Origin: Candidatus Binatia bacterium
Lineage (GTDB): Bacteria; Desulfobacterota; Binatia; HRBIN30
Direction: 5' to 3'
DNA length: 64,000 nucleotides
Assembly (NCBI GenBank): GCA_038245295.1
Contig: JBBRSP010000001.1
Location: 288,001 to 352,000, forward strand
Shown here: positions 41,586-51,449 of the stretch, piece by piece
Position numbering within the stretch: the first letter of the stretch is position 1
Layout: the number at the start of each line of letters is the position of its first letter
Translations under genes and position numbers: made by a program
Notes under the pieces: model-generated
Database searches by the model: none
What the model was told of the DNA's origin: nothing
What the model saw: the letters and a program-made list of their open reading frames with translations, nothing else

Positions 41586-41680
41586 CCCGCCGCCATCGTT
41601 GAAGCGTGCCTTCCCTGACACCCGCAGCGGTTGGCGTCTCCCTTGCAGTACTCTTAAGTAGAGCCACAGGAGGGCCTACC

Positions 41681-43132
41681 ATGACGCGCCTCAGTCGTCG
41701 CGATGTTCTCAAGCTCGGCGGGTTGGCGCTGACAGCACCATACCTCGGAAGTCCTCGTTGGGCGCGCGGGTTGACCGCCGTCGGGTCGTTTCCTGTTCCG
41801 CCTCGTTTGCCTCTGATCCGCCCCGAGCCCGGATTGGTCGAGGCTGAGTTGAGCGCGGCATGGACGCAGTCTGCCGTCGCCGGCACGACGGCGCGGCTGC
41901 AGACCTACAACGGTAGTTTCCCGGGCCCGATCCTGCGCCTGCGCGAAGGCGAACGGGTTCGCCTCTGGTTCACCAACAACCTGGGTGAGCCGAGCAACTT
42001 GCACATGCATGGACTGCATGTGCCGCCGAGCATCGATAATCCATTTCTCTCGGTCTCACCGGGCGAGACCACCGTCTACGAATTCGACGTTCCGGCGAAT
42101 TCGGCGGGCACGTACTGGTATCATCCGCATCTGCACATGCGCGTCGCCCGCCAGCTCTTTGGTGGGCTTGCTGGCGTCATCGTCGTCGAGGGCCGCATGG
42201 ACCGGCAGTTGCGCCGGCGCGGTGCCGACGAATACGTCGTCGTGCTCAAGGACCTTTCCCTGGTCAACGGCGCGCCGGAAGCCCATAACCCGTTCGATTG
42301 GATGAGCGGCAAGGAAGGCAATCTCCTGCTGGTGAACGGTGCCGTGCAGCCCGTGCTGGTGCCGCGCACGAGCCTGCTGCGCCTGCGGTTGCTAAACGCC
42401 AGCAACGCGCGTTACTACCGCCTCGCCCTGGAAGGCCATCCGCTGTTTCTGATCGCCACCGACGGCGGCTTCATCGACCAGCCGATCGAGCTCAATGAGT
42501 TGCTTCTCGCTCCGGGCGAACGGGCCGACGTGCTGGTACAGCTCAATACGGCCGGAAACTTCCGTCTCCTCAATCTTCCCTATGATCGCGGCAGTGGTCA
42601 CGGGATGGGTGGAATGCACGGCGGCGGTCACATGGGTGGCATGCATGGAGGTAGCACGGGAAGCACGGCGGCCCCGGATGTCCTCATGACCATCGCGGCT
42701 GGTGAAAACCCACCACGATCGCTTCCCTCACGTGTAGGCCTGGTCGAGCCTCTGGCCCCGGCACCAGGCGACGTCCACCGTCGCCTGGTGCTCGGCGAGG
42801 CGATGATGGGATTCCAGTTCTACCTCAACGGGCGGACCTTCGACGAGGCACGCATCGACTTCCAGGGACGGCTAGGAGATCTCGAGGTGTGGGAGATCGA
42901 CAATCGCACCGGCATGGATCACCCGATGCATCTCCATACATATCCCTTCCAGGTTTTGTCTCGGAATGGCGTCCCCGAGGCCCTGCGCGCCTGGAAAGAT
43001 GTGGTCAACGTGAGGGCAGGGGAGGTTGTTCGCATCGCCGTGCCGCTTCGGGATTTCACCGGCAAGACGGTCTACCACTGCCACATCGTCGAACACGAAG
43101 ATCGCGGCATGATGGGCGTTCTTGCGGTGTAG
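41681..43132 (+). CDS. Three-domain multicopper oxidase (CueO/McoA-like), Tat-exported
   Basis: SRRDVLK; HMHG, WYHPH, HPMHLH, YHCHIVEHEDRGMM; GHGMGGMHGGGHMGGMHGG insert. Confidence 0.95.
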   Translation: MTRLSRRDVLKLGGLALTAPYLGSPRWARGLTAVGSFPVPPRLPLIRPEPGLVEAELSAAWTQSAVAGTTARLQTYNGSFPGPILRLREGERVRLWFTNNLGEPSNLHMHGLHVPPSIDNPFLSVSPGETTVYEFDVPANSAGTYWYHPHLHMRVARQLFGGLAGVIVVEGRMDRQLRRRGADEYVVVLKDLSLVNGAPEAHNPFDWMSGKEGNLLLVNGAVQPVLVPRTSLLRLRLLNASNARYYRLALEGHPLFLIATDGGFIDQPIELNELLLAPGERADVLVQLNTAGNFRLLNLPYDRGSGHGMGGMHGGGHMGGMHGGSTGSTAAPDVLMTIAAGENPPRSLPSRVGLVEPLAPAPGDVHRRLVLGEAMMGFQFYLNGRTFDEARIDFQGRLGDLEVWEIDNRTGMDHPMHLHTYPFQVLSRNGVPEALRAWKDVVNVRAGEVVRIAVPLRDFTGKTVYHCHIVEHEDRGMMGVLAV

Positions 43133-43536: not shown

Positions 43537-44052
43537 GCAACGGCTGTTCGCGGAGATGGACGGACATTGCCTCATGCTCGCGGCCGGTACGGGTGCCGAC
43601 TTCGCGCACTTCCCCGCCGGGCTGACGATCAAGACGATCGACATCAGCCCAGGCATGATCGCGCGCGGCGGGGCACGGGCCGCGATGTATGATGGCTCAC
43701 TCACGCTGCAGGTCATTGACGCGCAAGCCCTGCAGTTTGCCGACGCGAGCTTCGATTCGGTGGTCACCTCCTGCACATTTTGTTCGGTCCCCGATCCACT
43801 ACGCCGGTTGCGTGAGCTCTATCGCTGCTTGAAGCCAGGCGGCCGGTTGCTGATGTTCGAGCACGTGCGCAGCCGGGTCGGGCCGATCGCGTTGATGCAG
43901 GATGTCATGACGTTCATCACCCGTCGCGTCGTTGGTCCAGATATGAACCGTGATAGGTCAGCAACGTTGTGCGCGCCGGATTCGAGCTCTGCCGAGAGGA
44001 CAACGTCTACCTCGACGTGGTGAACTCCATTCGCGCCCGACGGCCAAACTAG
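43530..44052 (+). pseudogene. Class I SAM methyltransferase, N-truncated and frameshifted
   Basis: AAGTG, IDIS, FDSVV..CTFCSVPDP, LKPGGRLLMFEH; 1-nt loss near 43955 with continuation VSNVVRAGFEL... to TAG 44052. Confidence 0.75.
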
Positions 44053-44147
44053 GGCTGCCGGGCTTCGTCGCCTTGTCCTCCCGCGCCCGAACTTAGCCAC
44101 TTGTTGGAATGACATTTGCGCGTAGGGTTGGGCAAAGGAGCCGAAAA

Positions 44148-44540
44148 ATGTCCATCTCACACAAATGTCGTACGGCGATCGGGTATAGCCTCGGGGTTGT
44201 CGGCCTCGTAGCTCTCACGAGTATCGGTTCGGGGAGCGCCGCGTTGGCGCAGGGTGCGGGGCCGGTGACCGACGCCAACGTGGTCGAGCGCGTAGTCAAT
44301 ATGAAAACCCCCGCCGATCACACGGCCATTGCCGACTACTATCAGGCGAAGGCCGCGACCGCTGCCACCGAGGTGACGCGGCACGAGGCGATGGTGAAGT
44401 CGTACGAGAACATGGGCAACCCGGCCAAGCAGATGGCGGCCCACTGCGGGCGTCTCCTCGACGCTGCCAAGAAGGAACATGCCGAGTATGAGTCCTTGGC
44501 CAAGGACCATGCCGCCATGGCGGCGGCCGCGAAGAAGTAG
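44148..44540 (+). CDS. Periplasmic helical His/Met-containing putative metal-binding protein
   Basis: AAGGAG RBS, signal peptide, DH..IA.YY, RHEAM, MAAHC, DHAAM. Confidence 0.75.
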   Translation: MSISHKCRTAIGYSLGVVGLVALTSIGSGSAALAQGAGPVTDANVVERVVNMKTPADHTAIADYYQAKAATAATEVTRHEAMVKSYENMGNPAKQMAAHCGRLLDAAKKEHAEYESLAKDHAAMAAAAKK

Positions 44541-44565
44541 CTGAGTCAAGCGACGCACACGATGG

Positions 44566-44594
44566 GGCACGGCTCACGAAGAGCGAGCCGTGCC
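44566..44594 (+). terminator. GC-rich hairpin after 44540 stop (no clear U-tract)
   Basis: GGCACGGCTC / GAGCCGTGCC. Confidence 0.35.
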
Positions 44595-44808
44595 GGTCGT
44601 CGCCCCGGGCTGCGTAACTCCACGCGCGTAGTAGTGCGTTCTTACTATCCATTCTGACACTTGCAATAAGGGGGCATGGCTGACGTCGGTCTCGGGAACT
44701 GTGATGAACAGCGATCGCTGGCCCTCTTCACCTCCTGCCAGGCGCTCAACCGCAGCGACGCTGGTGGAACGAATCGCGCGCGGTAGACATCAACAACGGA
44801 GGTAGACC

Positions 44809-45192
44809 ATGAGACGACCACTTCAGAGAATAGCTCTCTACGCCATGGGAGGACTCCTCTTCGGCGCAACCGCGCATGCCGCGCCGGTCGCTCCACAATT
44901 GAGCGCGCACCTTGTCGATCCGGCCGCCAAGGCGCAGAAGCAGGCGGCGACCGTCGAGGTGAAGGTCAGCGGCGTGAAGATCATCGACCCGGCATCGGCC
45001 AAGGAGAAGCCACGCCCTGGGCAAGGTCATCTGCACTACCAGGTTGACGACGGTCCGATCATTGCCACGACGGCAACCAAGTTGAGTTTTCACGGCCTCA
45101 AGACCGGCAAGCATTCGATCAAGGTCATGCTCGCCGGCAACGATCATCAGGCGCTCGGGCCGGAAGCGACCCTGAACGTCGACATCCCCTGA
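44809..45192 (+). CDS. Small secreted beta-sandwich protein with GHLHY motif
   Basis: GGAGGT RBS, signal peptide ending AHA, GQGHLHYQVD, GKHSI, NDH. Confidence 0.75.
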   Translation: MRRPLQRIALYAMGGLLFGATAHAAPVAPQLSAHLVDPAAKAQKQAATVEVKVSGVKIIDPASAKEKPRPGQGHLHYQVDDGPIIATTATKLSFHGLKTGKHSIKVMLAGNDHQALGPEATLNVDIP

Positions 45193-45210
45193 GCAAGGAG
45201 GAACTGCCAA

Positions 45211-45576
45211 ATGGGACGATCTGAGATCGCTGAAAGGTCGGCAAGCCTCGAGCACGGAAGCCGCGCGGCAGGCCTCGAAAGTCGGCGTGTTTGGCCGGAC
45301 CCGAACACGCCGCGATGCAGCCTCCACAGTCCGTTGCCGGGCCGTGAGCTGGCCTCCATCATTCATTTCATCAGCTGCCCGTACTGCCAGCGTACCTTCG
45401 ATGTGTTTGCCGCGCTGTGGTGCGCCCACCAGGAGGATCAGCCGTCGAAGGTTTGTCCGCACTGCGACCGTTGCCTCTGTGCGCACCCCGCCTACGCAGA
45501 ACCTCACTTTTGGAGGGACTCGCCGGCGGTTTTTCATGACCGCGGATTCACACGTTTGTTCCTGTTCTATCTCTGA
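45211..45576 (+). CDS. Small Cys-rich zinc-finger-like protein
   Basis: AAGGAGG RBS; CPYC, WCAH, CPHC, CLC. Confidence 0.6.
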   Translation: MGRSEIAERSASLEHGSRAAGLESRRVWPDPNTPRCSLHSPLPGRELASIIHFISCPYCQRTFDVFAALWCAHQEDQPSKVCPHCDRCLCAHPAYAEPHFWRDSPAVFHDRGFTRLFLFYL

Positions 45577-45655
45577 GTCCGCGACTCCACGGTCGTGTCA
45601 TTTGAACCGGCACCGTGCTTGACGATCTCCCGAGCAGCGCTTAAGGGAGCCCGCA

Positions 45656-46048
45656 GTGAAGCGTACTATCACCAGTCTCCTGTTGCTGGCGTTGTTCGCG
45701 GCCGACCTGCTGCTTTGTCCTTGTGTCGGGACGGCGACGGCATCGACGCCGCAATCACGACGCAAGGCAGACGCCCACGAGTGCTGCCCCGCCGCCGACG
45801 AATCCGGACGAGGGCACGGGGCGGTCCCCCAGCATCATCCTGGCTGCGATCATTGCGATCATGGCGGTGCCTCGCTCACCGCCGCGAGCAACGCCGCCTC
45901 GTTCCAGGCGCCGCAATTGTGGGCGATGTCACCTGTGATATCGGCTGTCCCGTTTCTACCTGCTTCCGTCCCTTCGGCCTTCGGAGATCGAATCCCGAAG
46001 CCTCCCCCGTTGCCACTGACGCACCGCACGTGCGTCTTGCTGATTTGA
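45656..46048 (+). CDS. Exported Cys/His-rich leader protein (DUF2946/CutF-like) upstream of the TolC-oxidase-ATPase operon
   Basis: Signal-like N-terminus, CPC, HECC, HHPGCDHCDH, C-terminus PKPPPLPLTHRTCVLLI. Confidence 0.8.
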   Translation: MKRTITSLLLLALFAADLLLCPCVGTATASTPQSRRKADAHECCPAADESGRGHGAVPQHHPGCDHCDHGGASLTAASNAASFQAPQLWAMSPVISAVPFLPASVPSAFGDRIPKPPPLPLTHRTCVLLI

Positions 46049-46051
46049 CCA

Positions 46052-46160
46052 CCTCTTCCATCTGACCCGTCTCTCTTAATTGAGACGTGCGGGATTTCTC
46101 GCGTTTGATCGGCCATACCGCCGCGGCGCGAGCGGTCTGTTTGGAAGAGGAGCGTCCATG
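46052..46160 (+). promoter_or_regulatory. Anti-SD:SD pairing sequestering the TolC ribosome-binding site
   Basis: CCTCTTCCA (46052-46060) is the exact reverse complement of TGGAAGAGG (46142-46150), overlapping SD GAGGAG before ATG 46158. Confidence 0.72.
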
Positions 46161-47612
46161 TTCGGAAAAGCTAGATTGGGCTCGACGACCCGCGGCGGCT
46201 GGTGGCTGTGCCTCGTGACACTCGCTGGGTGTGCGAACATCCAACCCCAGGGCGGATTCAGCGATGTGCAACAACTGATCGCCGAGCGCATGCAGGAACC
46301 CATCTATTGGAGCCAGGGAACGGCCGCCGACGCCGAAGTGCAGCAACGTATCGGCGCCATGCTTGGGGAGGCTCTCACGTCCGACACGGCGGTGCAGATC
46401 GCGTTGCTCAACAACCGCGGCCTCCAGGCCACCTACGAGGACCTTGGCGTGGCGCAGGCCGACCTGGTCCAGGCTGGCCTGCTGAAGAATCCGGTGTTCA
46501 GTGTGGAACGCCGCTTCAGCGGCCAAGCGGCGGAATTTCACATCATCCAGGATTTCCTCGATGCGTTCCTGATCCCGCTGCGCAAGCGGGCGGCGCAAGC
46601 TGCGTTTGATGCGGAGAAGGCGCGCGTCGCCGAGGCCATCCTGAACCTGGCCACCGAGGTGCGCGCCACGTTCTACACCCTTCAAGGAGCGCAGCAGCTG
46701 GTCGAGATGCGGCGCTCGGTGGTGCGCAGCACCGAGGCATCGGCTGAGGCGGCTGACGCGCTGCATACGGCCGGTAACATCAGTGAGCTAGACTGGCGCA
46801 TTGAGCAGAAGGCGGGGACGCAGGCGCGACTCGATCTTGCGACGGCCGAGGACAGTGTCGTTCAGCATCGCGAACGCCTGAATGCGCTCCTCGGTCTTTG
46901 GGGTGAGCAAACGCAATGGAAGGTCAGCGTGCATCTGCCCGAGTTGCCAGCGGGAGAGATCCAACCGCAAGGGCTGGAGGCCCTCGCTGTTGAGCAGCGA
47001 CTTGATCTGGCCGCCGGTCGTCAGGGCATCGTGCTGGCAGCCGAGAGTCTCGGGCTGACGAGCGTGACGCGCTTCGTGCCGGATGTGAACATCGGCCTGC
47101 ACTCCGAACGCGAGGCGGACGGCTTCGACTCGCTCGGCCCAAGCTTGGATCTCGCCATCCCGATCTTCGATCAGGGTCAGGCCAAGATGGCGCGCAGCGC
47201 TGCGTTGCTGCGCCAGCGCCAGGAGCGTTATGTGGCGTTGGGCATCGAGGTTCGTTCGCAGGTGCGTGCCGCCTACGCCCGAATGTCGGCTGCCGGCAGG
47301 CGCGCCAACTTCTACCGCCGCACCGTTCTGCCGCTGCATGCGGAGATCCTCCATCACACCCAGCTGCACTACAACGCCATGCAAGCCGGCGTCTTCCAGT
47401 TGCTGCTGGCGCGGCAGGCCGAGATCGATGCCGGGCGCGAGTACATTGAGACCCTGCGCGACTATTGGATTGCGCGCGCCGAGTTGGAACGCGCCGTTGG
47501 CGGCCGACTTGCCGGGTTGACGATGAGTCCAGCGGAGCCGCCTGCAGGGGCTGAGACGCCCCCGGTGCCAAGTCCGCCGCACGAACATCAGCACCATGGA
47601 GATCAATCATGA
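46158..47612 (+). CDS. TolC-family outer membrane lipoprotein (copper-resistance associated)
   Basis: Lipobox LAGC; AVQIALLNNRGLQA, ADLVQAGLLKNP, YNAMQAGVFQLL; His-rich tail. Confidence 0.9.
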   Translation: MFGKARLGSTTRGGWWLCLVTLAGCANIQPQGGFSDVQQLIAERMQEPIYWSQGTAADAEVQQRIGAMLGEALTSDTAVQIALLNNRGLQATYEDLGVAQADLVQAGLLKNPVFSVERRFSGQAAEFHIIQDFLDAFLIPLRKRAAQAAFDAEKARVAEAILNLATEVRATFYTLQGAQQLVEMRRSVVRSTEASAEAADALHTAGNISELDWRIEQKAGTQARLDLATAEDSVVQHRERLNALLGLWGEQTQWKVSVHLPELPAGEIQPQGLEALAVEQRLDLAAGRQGIVLAAESLGLTSVTRFVPDVNIGLHSEREADGFDSLGPSLDLAIPIFDQGQAKMARSAALLRQRQERYVALGIEVRSQVRAAYARMSAAGRRANFYRRTVLPLHAEILHHTQLHYNAMQAGVFQLLLARQAEIDAGREYIETLRDYWIARAELERAVGGRLAGLTMSPAEPPAGAETPPVPSPPHEHQHHGDQS

Positions 47613-48955
47613 AGTCGAACAAGCAGGGCATGCCACGTAGAGACTTCCTCGTTTCAGGAGCCGCGGCCATGGCTGGTGGAGCTCTTCTTCTCGGCGGCGT
47701 TGGTCAAACGGCGATAGCTCAGGCGACGCCGGAACCCCCAAAGGATCCTGAAGCGGCGCGGCAAGCATCAGGCATGGCCGGGCAAGACTATGCCCCCGTC
47801 ATTGTACCCAACGGTGCCAAATTGCCGTGGAAGATGATCGACGGCGTCAAAGTGTTCCACTTGATCGCGGAGGAGGTTGATCACGAGTTCGCCCCGGGCC
47901 TGAAGGCAACGTGTTGGGGCTACAACGGTGCCGTGCACGGTCCGCTAATCGAAGCGGTCGAAGGTGATCGCGTGCGGATCTATGTGACGAACCGCCTGTC
48001 CGCGTCGACCACGGTTCACTGGCATGGTCTCCTCGTGCCCAGCGGTATGGACGGCGTCGGCGGTCTCAATCAGCGCGCGATCAGACCGGGCGAGACCTTC
48101 AAATACGAGTTCACCCTTATCCAGCACGGGACGCTGATGTACCACTCGCATCACGACGAGATGACACAGATCGCCCTAGGCATGACTGGCATGTTTGTCG
48201 TGCATCCGCGTCAGCGGCCGGACCCCAAAATCGATCGCGACTTCGCGATCATGTTGCACGAGTGGCGTATCGACGCCGGAGCGACTCGCCCAAATCCGAA
48301 TGAGATGACGGAGTTCAACATCCTGACGATGAACGGACGAGTGTTCCCAGGCACCTCGCCTCTGGTGGCCCGCAAGGGGGATCGCGTGCGCATCCGTCTC
48401 GGCAATCTGGGGCCGATGGATCATCATCCGATCCACCTGCACGGACATGTGTTCACCCTGGTGGCGACGGATGGCGGAGAAGTTCCGGCATCGGCGCGGC
48501 ACCCCGAAACAACGGTACTCGTGCCGGTAGGCAGTACTCGCACGGTGGAGCTCGTGGCGACCGAGGGTGACTGGGCGATGCACTGTCACATGACCCATCA
48601 CGTCATGAACCAGATGGGTCACAAGTTTCCCAACATGATCGGTGTGAAGCCGGGTAGCCTCGACGCGAAGGTTGGTCAGGTCCTGCCGAGCTACATGACC
48701 ATGGGGCAGGACGGCATGGGTGATATGGGCGGGATGAAGATGGCGGTGCCGAAGAACAGCATCGCAATGGTCGGTGGTCGTGGGCCGTTCGACAACATTA
48801 CGATGGGCGGGATGTTTACGATTCTCAAGGTGCGCGGCAGCCTTGCCGACTACAACAGCGCGACCGAGTGGTACCCGAACCCGCCCGGGACCGTTGCTAA
48901 CCTGGCGACGGCCGAGCAACTGCGGGCCGACGGCATCGTCACCGATCGAAAATGA
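47609..48955 (+). CDS. Multicopper oxidase, probably two-domain type with Met-rich tail, Tat-exported
   Basis: [46 protein letters not shown] tail. Confidence 0.9.
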
Positions 48956-48986
48956 CAGGACTAGGCAAAGCACGGAGAAAACGACG

Positions 48987-51449
<2,463 letters not shown>

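What the first reader, a model, noticed from the sequence alone, without database searches (positions are those of the whole stretch)
45656..46160. Cys/His-rich exported leader ORF plus perfect anti-Shine-Dalgarno gate on the TolC-oxidase-CopA operon
Seen: a 130-aa ORF with signal-like N-terminus, CPC/CC/CDHC and His cluster, and Pro-rich end (PKPPPLPLTHRTCVLLI-TGA). Four nt after its stop, CCTCTTCCA (46052-46060) is the exact 9-nt complement of TGGAAGAGG (46142-46150), which overlaps the SD of tolC (ATG 46158); the enclosed spacer has its own hairpins (CGTCTC/GAGACG, ACCGC/GCGGT). Known: Rhodobacter CutF and Bordetella CruR (DUF2946) are exported Cys-motif, Pro-rich arrest peptides that control downstream copper genes post-transcriptionally. 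Inference: a ribosome paused at the leader's end covers the anti-SD and switches on the operon in response to periplasmic copper.
Basis: partly seen in the sequence, partly recalled or inferred. Interest (0 to 1): 0.9.

Follow-up and report, generated by a model that had tools for sequence, protein, structure and literature searches.

The report
Copper-operon leader peptide with RNA gate
A small exported, cysteine- and histidine-rich leader gene ends exactly where an RNA helix hides the ribosome-binding site of a copper-export operon, making it an unannotated, structurally distinct branch of the known CutF/CruR copper-sensing leader switches.

Summary
ORF 45656-46048 (130 aa) has an N-terminal hydrophobic helix, CxC, CC and CxHC motifs and PPP. 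Three bases after its TGA, CCTCTTCCA (46052-46060) is the exact complement of TGGAAGAGG (46142-46150), which overlaps the Shine-Dalgarno of a TolC-like gene heading an oxidase and CopA operon.

The ORF belongs to an unannotated family: 441 representatives at 50% identity, found patchily in its own class (one related record is titled Candidatus Binatia). In 16 loci with DNA, the 25 bases starting at the leader stop pair with the next gene's SD/start region. Cognate pairs are much stronger than non-cognate ones (-19.5 vs -13.6 kcal/mol, permutation p<5e-5). Proline codons and the last codons show no such covariation.

A ribosome placed at the stop codon lowers the RBS opening energy in 16 of 16 loci. 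One placed at the prolines does not.

The design matches published CutF (Rhodobacter) and CruR (Bordetella). Differences: the window protein fails Pfam DUF2946, and the prolines lie about 12 residues before the end, followed by a better conserved tail (…C-V-L-L-I-UGA).

Copper response and the arrest site are inferred, not shown. The scan has noted similar leaders in other genomes. Verdict: new variant of a known kind.

The parts
45643..45649 (+). Shine-Dalgarno-like AAGGGAG of the leader, 6 nt before GTG 45656
   Evidence: Read from the sequence.
45656..46048 (+). Leader ORF, 130 aa, GTG start, TGA stop. It belongs to an unannotated CutF-like family.
   Evidence: ORF. (homologues in related genomes). 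(441 representatives at E<=1e-3). (synonymous variation in the tail codons).
45656..45742 (+). N-terminal export signal or signal-anchor (residues 1-29). It includes the nearly invariant C21-x-C23 at its periplasmic end.
   Evidence: AF2 helix at residues 2-20 with pLDDT 86-89. C21 and C23 are conserved in at least 90% of 149 sequences. No signal-peptide predictor was available, so cleavage is not established.
45782..45862 (+). Candidate metal-binding stretch: C43-C44, H54, H60-H61, C64-D-H-C67-D-H69
   Evidence: C67 is invariant; C64 and H66 are conserved in at least 90% of 149 sequences. Metal binding itself is inferred.
46001..46009 (+). PPP codons (P116-P118), 12 codons before the stop. 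In the fold with a ribosome at the stop they are the fallback partner of the SD.
   Evidence: There is no SD covariation for this segment across loci (p 0.09).
46010..46045 (+). Conserved C-terminal tail LPLTHRTCVLLI. Family motif: [LVI]-L-R-x-[KT]-C-[VA]-L-x-[IL]-stop.
   Evidence: C at -5 in 123 of 149, L at -3 in 136 of 149, L at -9 in 113 of 149; the codons vary synonymously.
46046..46048 (+). TGA stop of the leader. Its G and A pair with U46155 and C46156.
   Evidence: The stop is TGA in 16 of 16 loci, against 18 of 30 long ORFs of the window.
46047..46060 (+). 5' strand of the gate helix (anti-SD; core CCTCTTCCA 46052-46060)
46068..46132 (+). Internal hairpins enclosed by the gate helix (CGTCTC/GAGACG and CTCGCG/CGCGAG)
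   Evidence: They are not conserved in sequence between loci.
46142..46156 (+). 3' strand of the gate helix. It covers the SD GGAAGAGGAG (46143-46152) and runs to 2 nt before the AUG.
46158..47612 (+). TolC/NodT-like outer-membrane efflux lipoprotein gene (OEP, PF02321). This is the gated gene.
   Evidence: (E 4.8e-27). The LAGC lipobox is read.
47609..48955 (+). Multicopper oxidase with a Tat-like signal. Its start overlaps the tolC stop by 4 nt.
48984..51449 (+). CopA-type P1B ATPase with a YHS domain and two HMBD domains

Best explanation
The ORF is a cis-acting, exported, metal-sensing leader peptide of the CutF/CruR kind. It controls translation initiation of the tolC-like gene and, through coupling, of the oxidase-CopA operon.

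In the resting mRNA, a helix running from the leader's own stop codon (46047-46060) to the SD and the bases just before the AUG (46142-46156) shuts the tolC ribosome-binding site. Only a ribosome sitting on the last codons or the UGA of the leader unwinds that strand. How long ribosomes dwell there therefore sets how often a 30S subunit can load on tolC.

Preferred sub-model:
- The conserved last ~14 residues (PP…L-L-R-x-K-C-V-L-L-I) act inside the exit tunnel as an arrest or slow-termination peptide at the UGA.
- The dwell is lengthened when copper binds the Cys/His motifs (CxC at the end of the signal-anchor, CC, CxHC) that have already emerged on the periplasmic side.
- Copper therefore switches the efflux and detoxification operon on, as published for CutF.

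Shown here: the gene family, the helix, its covariation, and the position dependence of gate opening.
Inferred: export, copper binding, pausing, and the sign of regulation.
For: 1. The gene is real and the family conserved.
- A profile of 10 members finds 441 representatives at E<=1e-3 and 56 at E<=1e-10 among 1.84 billion.
- C21, C23, C64, H66, C67, P116, P117 and L128 are conserved in at least 90% of 149 sequences.
- The tail codons vary synonymously.

2. The architecture meets the published rule-based definition of CutF-like proteins (PMC9973294, section 10 read): under 150 aa, PP within the last 15 residues, an N-terminal signal, and a same-strand gene within 1000 nt. The commonest published neighbour class is OEP (section 11 read), as here.

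3. Covariation of the helix in 16 loci.
- The duplex between stop..+22 and start-22..+2 averages -19.5 kcal/mol for cognate pairs against -13.6 for non-cognate pairs; 0 of 20,000 permutations reach the cognate mean.
- 7 of 16 loci rank first both ways; the window ranks 2nd and 1st.
- The sequences differ between loci: CCUCUUCCA/UGGAAGAGG, UCCUUUUUC/GGAAAAGGA, GUCCUCUCG/CGAGAGGAC, CCCCUC/GAGGGG.
- Controls on 13 loci: proline-codon window p 0.09, last 25 nt of the ORF p 0.37, post-stop window p<5e-5.

4. In partition-function folds, the SD pairs with the first 25 nt from the stop with P>=0.5 in 12 of 16 loci.

5. Position dependence.
- Mean RBS opening energy is 13.7 kcal/mol free, 9.0 with a ribosome at the stop, and 13.6 with a ribosome 13 codons upstream.
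- It is lower with a ribosome at the stop in 16 of 16 loci (Wilcoxon p 3e-5).
- Window: 13.8, 8.1 and 14.8.

6. The tail is better conserved than the prolines.
- C at -5 in 123 of 149 and L at -3 in 136 of 149.
- 21 of 148 proteins and 3 of 16 loci lack PP in the last 25 residues yet keep the tail.
- 16 of 16 leader stops are TGA, against 18 of 30 in the window's long ORFs.

7. AF2 with 149 sequences predicts only the N-terminal helix and no globular domain (pTM 0.27). This fits a nascent-chain sensor better than a folded chaperone.

8. The mechanism has a published precedent. A CutF stall melts a stem-loop shielding the cutO SD, works only in cis, and needs translation, the signal peptide, the Cys motif and PPP (PMC9973294, section 5 read; bioRxiv 10.1101/2025.02.05.636593, abstract, introduction and discussion read).
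Against: - No experiment and no expression data exist for this locus (one search listed no RNA holder).
- At equilibrium, the window's SD stays mostly paired even with a ribosome at the stop (P paired 0.77 free against 0.80). It falls back on the PPP codons 46001-46009 and on bases after the AUG. Gate opening is therefore a 5-6 kcal/mol and kinetic effect, not an all-or-none one.
- The post-stop anti-SD is weak or absent in some loci. The z-score is weaker than -2 in 7 of 16 (L002, L025, L027, L029, L046, L048, L054). In L054 the best partner of the SD lies in the last codons.
- No known arrest motif ends in Leu-Leu-Ile-stop (recalled knowledge).
- In both characterised relatives the arrest is at the prolines, 2-3 codons before the stop.
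- The CxxC-to-PP spacing here (45-58 residues, mode 50; window 48) resembles the 45-residue ruler of DUF2946 (PMC9426467 passages). This argues that sensing happens while the ribosome is at PP, as in rival 1.
- Homology to DUF2946 is weak. The window protein gives no hit. 4 of 10 members and 12 of 149 give sub-threshold or marginal hits. hhalign against two true DUF2946 ORFs is not significant.
- RNAalifold on a MAFFT alignment found no consensus pairs, because the alignment does not keep the helices in register.
Confidence: 0.6

Rival explanations
1. Same gate, inverted logic. The ribosome arrests at the prolines, the homologous site in CruR and CutF, 12 codons before the stop and out of reach of the gate, so arrest keeps tolC shut. 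Copper binding to the nascent chain relieves the arrest, as published for CruR. Ribosomes then run to the stop, open the helix and switch the operon on. The tail would serve as a spacer, and perhaps as a degradation signal.
For: - The CxxC-to-PP spacing of 45-58 residues (mode 50; window 48) is close to the 45-residue ruler that matters for CruR (PMC9426467 passages). CutF's PPP lies 2 residues, and CruR's RAPP 3 residues, before the end (bioRxiv 10.1101/2025.02.05.636593 and PMC9426467 passages).
- A ribosome at the proline position leaves the RBS as closed as in free RNA (13.6 against 13.7 kcal/mol).
- The motifs around PP are of kinds I recall as EF-P-dependent pause motifs: PPP, PPG, PPD, PPN (sequences; the motif classification is recalled).
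Against: - A spacer need not be conserved, yet the tail is the best conserved C-terminal element.
- 21 of 148 family proteins and 3 of 16 loci have no PP in the last 25 residues.
- The R-A/G of the robust RAPP/RGPP arrest core (PMC12992588, abstract only) is missing.
Confidence: 0.2
2. Plain translational coupling without sensing. The leader is an ordinary periplasmic Cys/His copper-binding protein (CopL, CzcI or CusD-like). The helix merely ties tolC translation to leader translation, while copper regulation is transcriptional.
For: - Six Cys and several His are conserved.
- Any terminating ribosome would open the helix.
- Published CutF-like lists include members thought to act differently (PMC9973294, section 12 read).
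Against: - AF2 finds no fold beyond the N-terminal helix.
- The exact C-terminal register of the tail and the universal TGA are hard to explain for a mature protein.
- No copper-responsive regulator gene or promoter was identified next to the leader. The promoter scan covers only sigma-70 consensus sites.
Confidence: 0.12
3. Rho-dependent attenuation as in CruR. Ribosome position on the leader decides whether Rho terminates transcription in the 109-nt spacer. The helix would be incidental to that.
For: CruR works this way, with a 162-nt intergenic region (PMC9426467 abstract and passages).
Against: - The spacer is predicted to be almost fully structured.
- The covarying element is specifically an SD-sequestering helix.
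Confidence: 0.05
4. Chance complementarity beside a spurious ORF in GC-rich DNA.
For: GC-rich DNA carries many open frames, and pyrimidine tracts pair with any SD.
Against: - The family has 441 representatives.
- The cognate against non-cognate test is significant, with negative controls.
- The 9-mer is unique in the window.
Confidence: 0.02

Closest known systems
CutF of Rhodobacter capsulatus (cutFOG operon; PMC9973294, bioRxiv 10.1101/2025.02.05.636593)
   Same: - Small Sec-exported leader with Cys motifs and C-terminal prolines.
- Heads a copper-detoxification operon that includes a multicopper oxidase.
- A stem-loop shields the SD of the next gene.
- Expected sign of regulation: copper switches the operon on.
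   Different: - CutF ends …GPPPRL, with PPP 2 residues before the stop. Here PPP is followed by a conserved 12-residue tail ending C-V-L-L-I.
- The metal motif is CxHC plus CxC plus CC, not CxxxC.
- The gated gene is a TolC-like OEP, with the oxidase second.
- The helix starts at the stop codon and closes an ~80-nt multi-hairpin spacer.
CruR (Bp2923) of Bordetella pertussis, prototype of Pfam DUF2946 (PMC9426467)
   Same: - Exported uORF with CXXC and a Pro-Pro motif about 45-50 residues later.
- Heads a copper operon.
- The only Pfam family that recurs, weakly, among relatives is DUF2946 (12 of 149).
   Different: - No RAPP motif.
- The window protein fails PF11162.
- CruR acts through Rho termination and switches an uptake system off with copper. 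Here the covarying element is an SD-sequestering helix in front of efflux genes.
- The same genome carries a separate canonical DUF2946 ORF ending RAPPARA.
SecM-secA and related monitoring substrates (recalled; summarised in the introduction of bioRxiv 10.1101/2025.02.05.636593)
   Same: An exported leader whose arrested ribosome melts a helix hiding the SD of the downstream gene. The arrest peptide spans roughly the last 15-17 residues.
   Different: It senses secretion activity, not metal. It arrests at a Pro a few codons before the stop and belongs to an unrelated sequence family.
CopL (Xanthomonas/Stenotrophomonas) and CusD, SilD, CzcI (Cupriavidus), named as CutF-like in PMC9973294 (sections 10-11 and discussion passage)
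   Same: Small Cys/His-rich ORFs directly upstream of copper oxidase or OEP/RND efflux genes. CopL is reported to act only in cis.
   Different: tblastn of the window protein against 72,556 plasmids at E<=1 gave no match, so no detectable similarity to any protein encoded on those plasmids. Whether those records include the named genes was not checked. CzcI lacks the proline motif (paper passage).

Membership tests
Pfam DUF2946 (PF11162; CruR family) | HMM match above the gathering score (23.7 bits) | tested here: not met
   - The window protein gives no hit at E<=10.
- A six-frame PF11162 search of the own genome at E<=1 hits three other places and not this ORF.
- Relatives give weak hits: 4 of 10 at E<=10 (best 9.2e-4) and 12 of 149 at E<=0.01 (best 4.7e-5).
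Pfam DUF2946 (PF11162; CruR family) | Conserved CXXC motif | tested here: met
   C64-D-H-C67. C67 is invariant, and C64 and H66 are conserved in at least 90% of 149 sequences.
Pfam DUF2946 (PF11162; CruR family) | C-terminal RAPP motif about 3 residues before the end (PMC9426467) | tested here: not met
   The window has K-P-P-P followed by 12 residues. In the family, the last PP lies 9-20 residues (modes 11 and 13) before the end, and there is no conserved R-A.
Pfam DUF2946 (PF11162; CruR family) | About 45 residues between CXXC and the proline motif | tested here: inconclusive
   The window has 48 intervening residues. The family has 45-58, mode 50. This is similar to, but looser and longer than, the published 45 +/- 1-2.
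CutF-like proteins (rule-based definition of PMC9973294) | [quoted passage not shown] | tested here: met
   The protein is 130 aa, and P116-P118 occupy positions -15 to -13.
CutF-like proteins (rule-based definition of PMC9973294) | N-terminal Sec signal peptide | tested here: inconclusive
   A basic n-region followed by a ~17-residue hydrophobic stretch. AF2 predicts a helix at residues 2-20 with pLDDT 86-89. No signal-peptide predictor was available, so cleaved signal and signal-anchor cannot be told apart.
CutF-like proteins (rule-based definition of PMC9973294) | [quoted passage not shown] | tested here: met
   109 nt to an OEP gene, followed by a multicopper oxidase and CopA. In relatives the next gene is an OEP (4 of 16) or an HMBD lipoprotein (5 of 16) by Pfam; 7 of 16 gave no Pfam hit.
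CutF-type translational gate (mechanism) | Stem-loop that sequesters the SD of the next gene | tested here: met
   Covariation is shown by the cognate against non-cognate test, with negative controls.
CutF-type translational gate (mechanism) | Arrest site close enough to the stem-loop for the stalled ribosome to melt it | tested here: not met
   This holds for the proline site. A ribosome there leaves the opening energy unchanged (13.6 against 13.7 kcal/mol; window 14.8). The feature is met only if the pause is at the stop (9.0; window 8.1).
CutF-type translational gate (mechanism) | Acts only in cis, needs leader translation, and responds to copper | not testable with these tools
   These need reporter genetics and toeprinting.

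The most novel reading that the evidence does not exclude
The conserved non-proline tail (…L-L-R-x-K-C-V-L-L-I-UGA) would be a new kind of arrest module. It would hold the ribosome at the termination step, on a UGA that is itself the first base pair of the gate helix. The leader's stop and the next gene's start are brought side by side by RNA pairing. The prolines, about 12 residues back near the tunnel constriction, would be only an auxiliary element.

This clade would then be a termination-stage, copper-tuned variant of the CutF switch. It could also explain the tail length as roughly one ribosome footprint.
Probability: 0.3. Interest if true: 0.7.

Novelty: new variant of a known kind. Interest (0 to 1): 0.45.

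Why it matters
Copper-sensing leader peptides (CutF, CruR) are a recently described way for bacteria to read an extracytoplasmic metal through a nascent chain. How general the mechanism is, and how the opposite signs of regulation arise, remain open questions in those papers.

This clade offers a natural experiment. The proline motif and the RNA gate are separated by a conserved 12-codon tail, so the position of arrest and the opening of the gate can be told apart by simple mutants and toeprints.

The clade also extends the switch to an uncultured lineage (one related record is titled Candidatus Binatia) and to proteins that current family models leave unannotated. All cluster members looked up are unnamed or called 'hypothetical protein'. 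The family signature and the rule that the anti-SD begins at the leader's stop could be used to annotate such switches.

Tried and rejected
- Word-based homologue search with the single protein: no hit.
- NCBIfam: nothing for the leader.
- Rfam on 44000-47000: only a chance snoRNA match at E 0.33.
With the 3-sequence alignment it gave 2 loci in genome contigs and none in metagenome contigs.
- A phylum-wide sample of 401 genomes gave only the own genome. Only 10 candidates per genome were scored, so sensitivity was low.
- Class-wide matches L031-L034 were dropped after inspection as not family.
- L026 was dropped from the RNA tests because its C-terminus is replaced close to a contig end.
- RNAalifold on a MAFFT alignment of 9 of the 16 spacers (those of 101-116 nt) gave 0 pairs, because the helices were not in register. 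I therefore used duplex energies, cognate against non-cognate.
- hhalign of the family profile against two true DUF2946 ORFs: E 0.012 and 0.6, not significant.
- ESM Atlas: the nearest clusters are unnamed. The nearest with any Pfam family carries DUF2946 in 23% of members at score 0.94. This is a lead only.
- AF2: low confidence outside the N-terminal helix, so no fold search was made.
- Sigma-70 promoter scan of 44500-46300: no site.
- Sequencing runs: no RNA holder listed.
- tblastn against plasmids: no match.
- Supplements of PMC9973294: the 3 files held as text contain none of the terms searched. I could not see whether this clade is one of that paper's 29 sequence clusters (Figs S5-S6, File S1).
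- Proline codons or the last codons as the specific anti-SD: rejected by the controls.
Full report
**1. The observation**

The ORF 45656-46048 (+; GTG start preceded by AAGGGAG; TGA stop) encodes 130 residues. Its features are a basic, hydrophobic N-terminus, C21-P-C23, C43-C44, H60-H61, C64-D-H-C67-D-H69, P116-P118, and the tail LPLTHRTCVLLI.

CCTCTTCCA (46052-46060) begins 3 nt after the TGA. It is the exact complement of TGGAAGAGG (46142-46150), which overlaps the SD GGAAGAGGAG of a gene starting at ATG 46158. The 9-mer occurs nowhere else in the 64-kb window (expected 0.31). It is the longest inverted repeat of the spacer.

The RNA minimum-free-energy structure contains the helix and extends it. 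G46047 and A46048 of the stop codon pair with U46155 and C46156, two bases before the AUG. The fold z-score is -2.55. The duplex z-score against dinucleotide shuffles is -2.97.

The downstream genes are:
- a TolC/NodT-like OEP lipoprotein (46158-47612);
- a Tat-type multicopper oxidase that overlaps it by 4 nt (47609-48955);
- a CopA-type ATPase with YHS and HMBD domains (48984-51449).

**2. The leader is a real gene of an unannotated family**

A word-based search with the single protein found nothing, and neither Pfam nor NCBIfam matched. Six-frame searches of related genomes then found homologues. The yields were:
- 4 of 52 genomes of the own order;
- 8 of 20 and 3 of 25 genomes in two other orders of the same class;
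- only the own genome in a 401-genome sample of the phylum, a low-sensitivity search.

One of the two related public records found is titled uncultured Candidatus Binatia bacterium.

A profile of 10 members scored against 1.84 billion representatives gave 441 hits at E<=1e-3 and 56 at E<=1e-10. Nearly all alignments run to the very C-terminus. The nine hits whose clusters I looked up are unnamed or called 'hypothetical protein'.

In an alignment of the window protein with the 148 best hits, C67 is invariant. C21, C23, C64, H66, P116, P117 and L128 are at least 90% conserved.

The C-terminal logo is PP-x-x-[LVI]-L-R-x-[KT]-C-[VA]-L-x-[IL]-stop. C is at -5 in 123 of 149, L at -3 in 136 of 149, and L at -9 in 113 of 149. 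In the 16 loci with DNA the tail codons vary synonymously (for example CTT, CTC, TTG and CTG for the Leu at -3), so selection acts on the peptide.

AF2 with this alignment predicts only the N-terminal helix (residues 2-20) and no globular fold (pTM 0.27).

**3. The RNA gate is conserved and covaries**

For the 16 loci I took the 25 nt beginning at the leader's stop and the 25 nt ending at the downstream AUG.

- Cognate duplexes average -19.5 kcal/mol against -13.6 for the 240 non-cognate combinations. None of 20,000 permutations reached the cognate mean.
- 7 of 16 loci rank first in both directions. The window ranks second and first.
- The paired sequences differ between loci, for example UCCUUUUUC/GGAAAAGGA, GUCCUCUCG/CGAGAGGAC and CCCCUC/GAGGGG. 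This is compensatory change and not a shared pyrimidine tract.
- In most strong cases the helix starts at the U or G of the stop codon itself.

Negative controls on the 13 loci that have PP:
- proline-codon window against the SD window: -13.6 against -12.6, p 0.09;
- last 25 nt of the ORF: -12.1 against -11.9, p 0.37;
- post-stop window: -20.6 against -13.5, p<5e-5.

In partition-function folds the SD pairs with the first 25 nt from the stop with probability at least 0.5 in 12 of 16 loci.

The signal is not universal. Against shuffles, 9 of 16 loci have z<=-2.2 and 7 are weaker (L002, L025, L027, L029, L046, L048, L054). In L054 the best partner of the SD lies in the last codons. RNAalifold on a MAFFT alignment found nothing, because the helices are not in register.

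**4. Where must the ribosome be?**

I computed the free energy needed to open start-15..start+5 under three conditions:
- free RNA: mean 13.7 kcal/mol;
- a footprint with the last sense codon in the P site: mean 9.0, lower in 16 of 16 loci (Wilcoxon p 3e-5);
- a footprint 13 codons upstream, the proline position: mean 13.6 (p 0.74).

For the window the values are 13.8, 8.1 and 14.8.

One caveat applies. At equilibrium the window's SD remains mostly paired even then (0.77 against 0.80). It falls back on the PPP codons 46001-46009 and on bases after the AUG. The effect is therefore 5-6 kcal/mol and presumably kinetic.

**5. Comparison with what is known**

Two papers on Rhodobacter CutF describe the following (PMC9973294: outline and sections 5, 10, 11, 12 read, plus passages; bioRxiv 10.1101/2025.02.05.636593: abstract, introduction, discussion and passages read):
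- CutF is an exported Cu-sensing leader.
- Its stall at a C-terminal PPP (…GPPPRL, 2 residues before the end) melts a stem-loop shielding the cutO SD.
- It acts only in cis.
- The authors list 5,334 'CutF-like' proteins whose commonest downstream neighbour is an OEP gene.

Bordetella CruR (PMC9426467: abstract and passages) defines DUF2946 by CXXC and a RAPP motif 3 residues before the end, 45 residues apart. There copper relieves arrest and triggers Rho termination.

The window ORF meets the rule-based CutF-like definition (membership table). It fails PF11162, and only 12 of 149 relatives give weak DUF2946 hits. Profile comparison with two true DUF2946 ORFs is not significant. The same genome carries a separate canonical DUF2946 ORF ending RAPPARA-TAA. 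Its last codons pair next to the following SD.

The clade here therefore differs in four ways:
- a conserved 9-20-residue (modes 11 and 13) post-proline tail;
- a universal TGA stop (16 of 16, against 18 of 30 long ORFs in the window);
- an anti-SD that begins at the stop codon and not within the proline codons;
- PP that is dispensable in 21 of 148 members.

Searches of the paper library for CutF and for DUF2946 returned no title or abstract describing such a tail.

Earlier notes of this scan report comparable leader-plus-anti-SD designs in other genomes. I treated them as leads only.

**6. Mechanism**

Best reading (0.6): a CutF-type gate opened by a ribosome dwelling on the last codons or the UGA. 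The conserved tail acts as an arrest or slow-termination peptide, and copper bound to the exposed Cys/His motifs prolongs the dwell.

Main rival (0.2): arrest at the prolines, as in the characterised relatives, supported by the ~50-residue CxxC-PP ruler. Copper relieves it, so terminating ribosomes open the gate.

Both readings give copper-induced efflux. Toeprinting would separate them. Lesser rivals are plain translational coupling with a mature copper-binding protein (0.12), Rho attenuation (0.05) and chance (0.02).

**7. Verdict**

Two corrections apply: the protein is not a DUF2946 member by model, and the prolines are too far from the gate to open it.

It is a new variant of a known, recently published kind of switch. 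Interest is moderate.

Noticed in passing
window 46063-46065; loci L002, L025, L027, L028, L049, L054 (nt 18-20 from the stop) and L023, L030 (nt 17-19): A second stop triplet follows the leader's TGA at an almost fixed distance in 9 of 16 loci: 7 in the -1 frame and 2 in the +1 frame. In the window it also closes the -1-frame ORF 45595-46065. It may be a motif at the end of the helix or a back-up stop. Unexplained.
   Followed up: partly
L035 = G000:C4:130615-133950 (ORF at C4:132115-132450, minus strand): The same genome holds a canonical DUF2946/CruR-type leader (CPIC … RAPPARA-TAA; 25.8 bits). It lies 94 nt upstream of a 464-aa exported protein. Its last 25 nt pair at -29.4 kcal/mol with the stretch just before that gene's SD.
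   Followed up: partly
L027 (G129:C5), 86 nt after the leader stop: Here the gated SD and ATG open only a ~24-codon mini-ORF. That mini-ORF overlaps the start of the TolC-like lipoprotein gene, which has a weak SD of its own. This may be a relay of translational coupling or an assembly frame error.
   Followed up: no
L026 = G095:C243, leader copy: This copy keeps the N-terminal two thirds, but its C-terminus is replaced by unrelated sequence about 150 nt from the contig end. It is probably disrupted. The same genome has a second, intact copy (L049).
   Followed up: no
loci L002, L021, L023, L024, L025, L028, L030, L046, L054, first gene after the leader: In most relatives the gated gene is not tolC. 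It is a small lipoprotein with a shared …THPASP.A.EAP… motif, and several end in an HMBD (YTCPMHPEV…CPKCGM) domain (5 of 16 by Pfam). The window lacks this gene, and the leader gates tolC directly.
   Followed up: partly
window 45211-45576 (+): An ORF of up to 121 aa directly upstream of the leader is rich in Cys pairs (CPYC … CPHCDRCLC). It has no Pfam or NCBIfam family. It is not seen upstream of the leader in L002.
   Followed up: no
window 41606-43132 and 44809-45192 (+): The neighbourhood carries a second multicopper oxidase. It also carries a small exported protein with weak DUF4399/DUF6130 matches. The region looks like a copper island.
   Followed up: no
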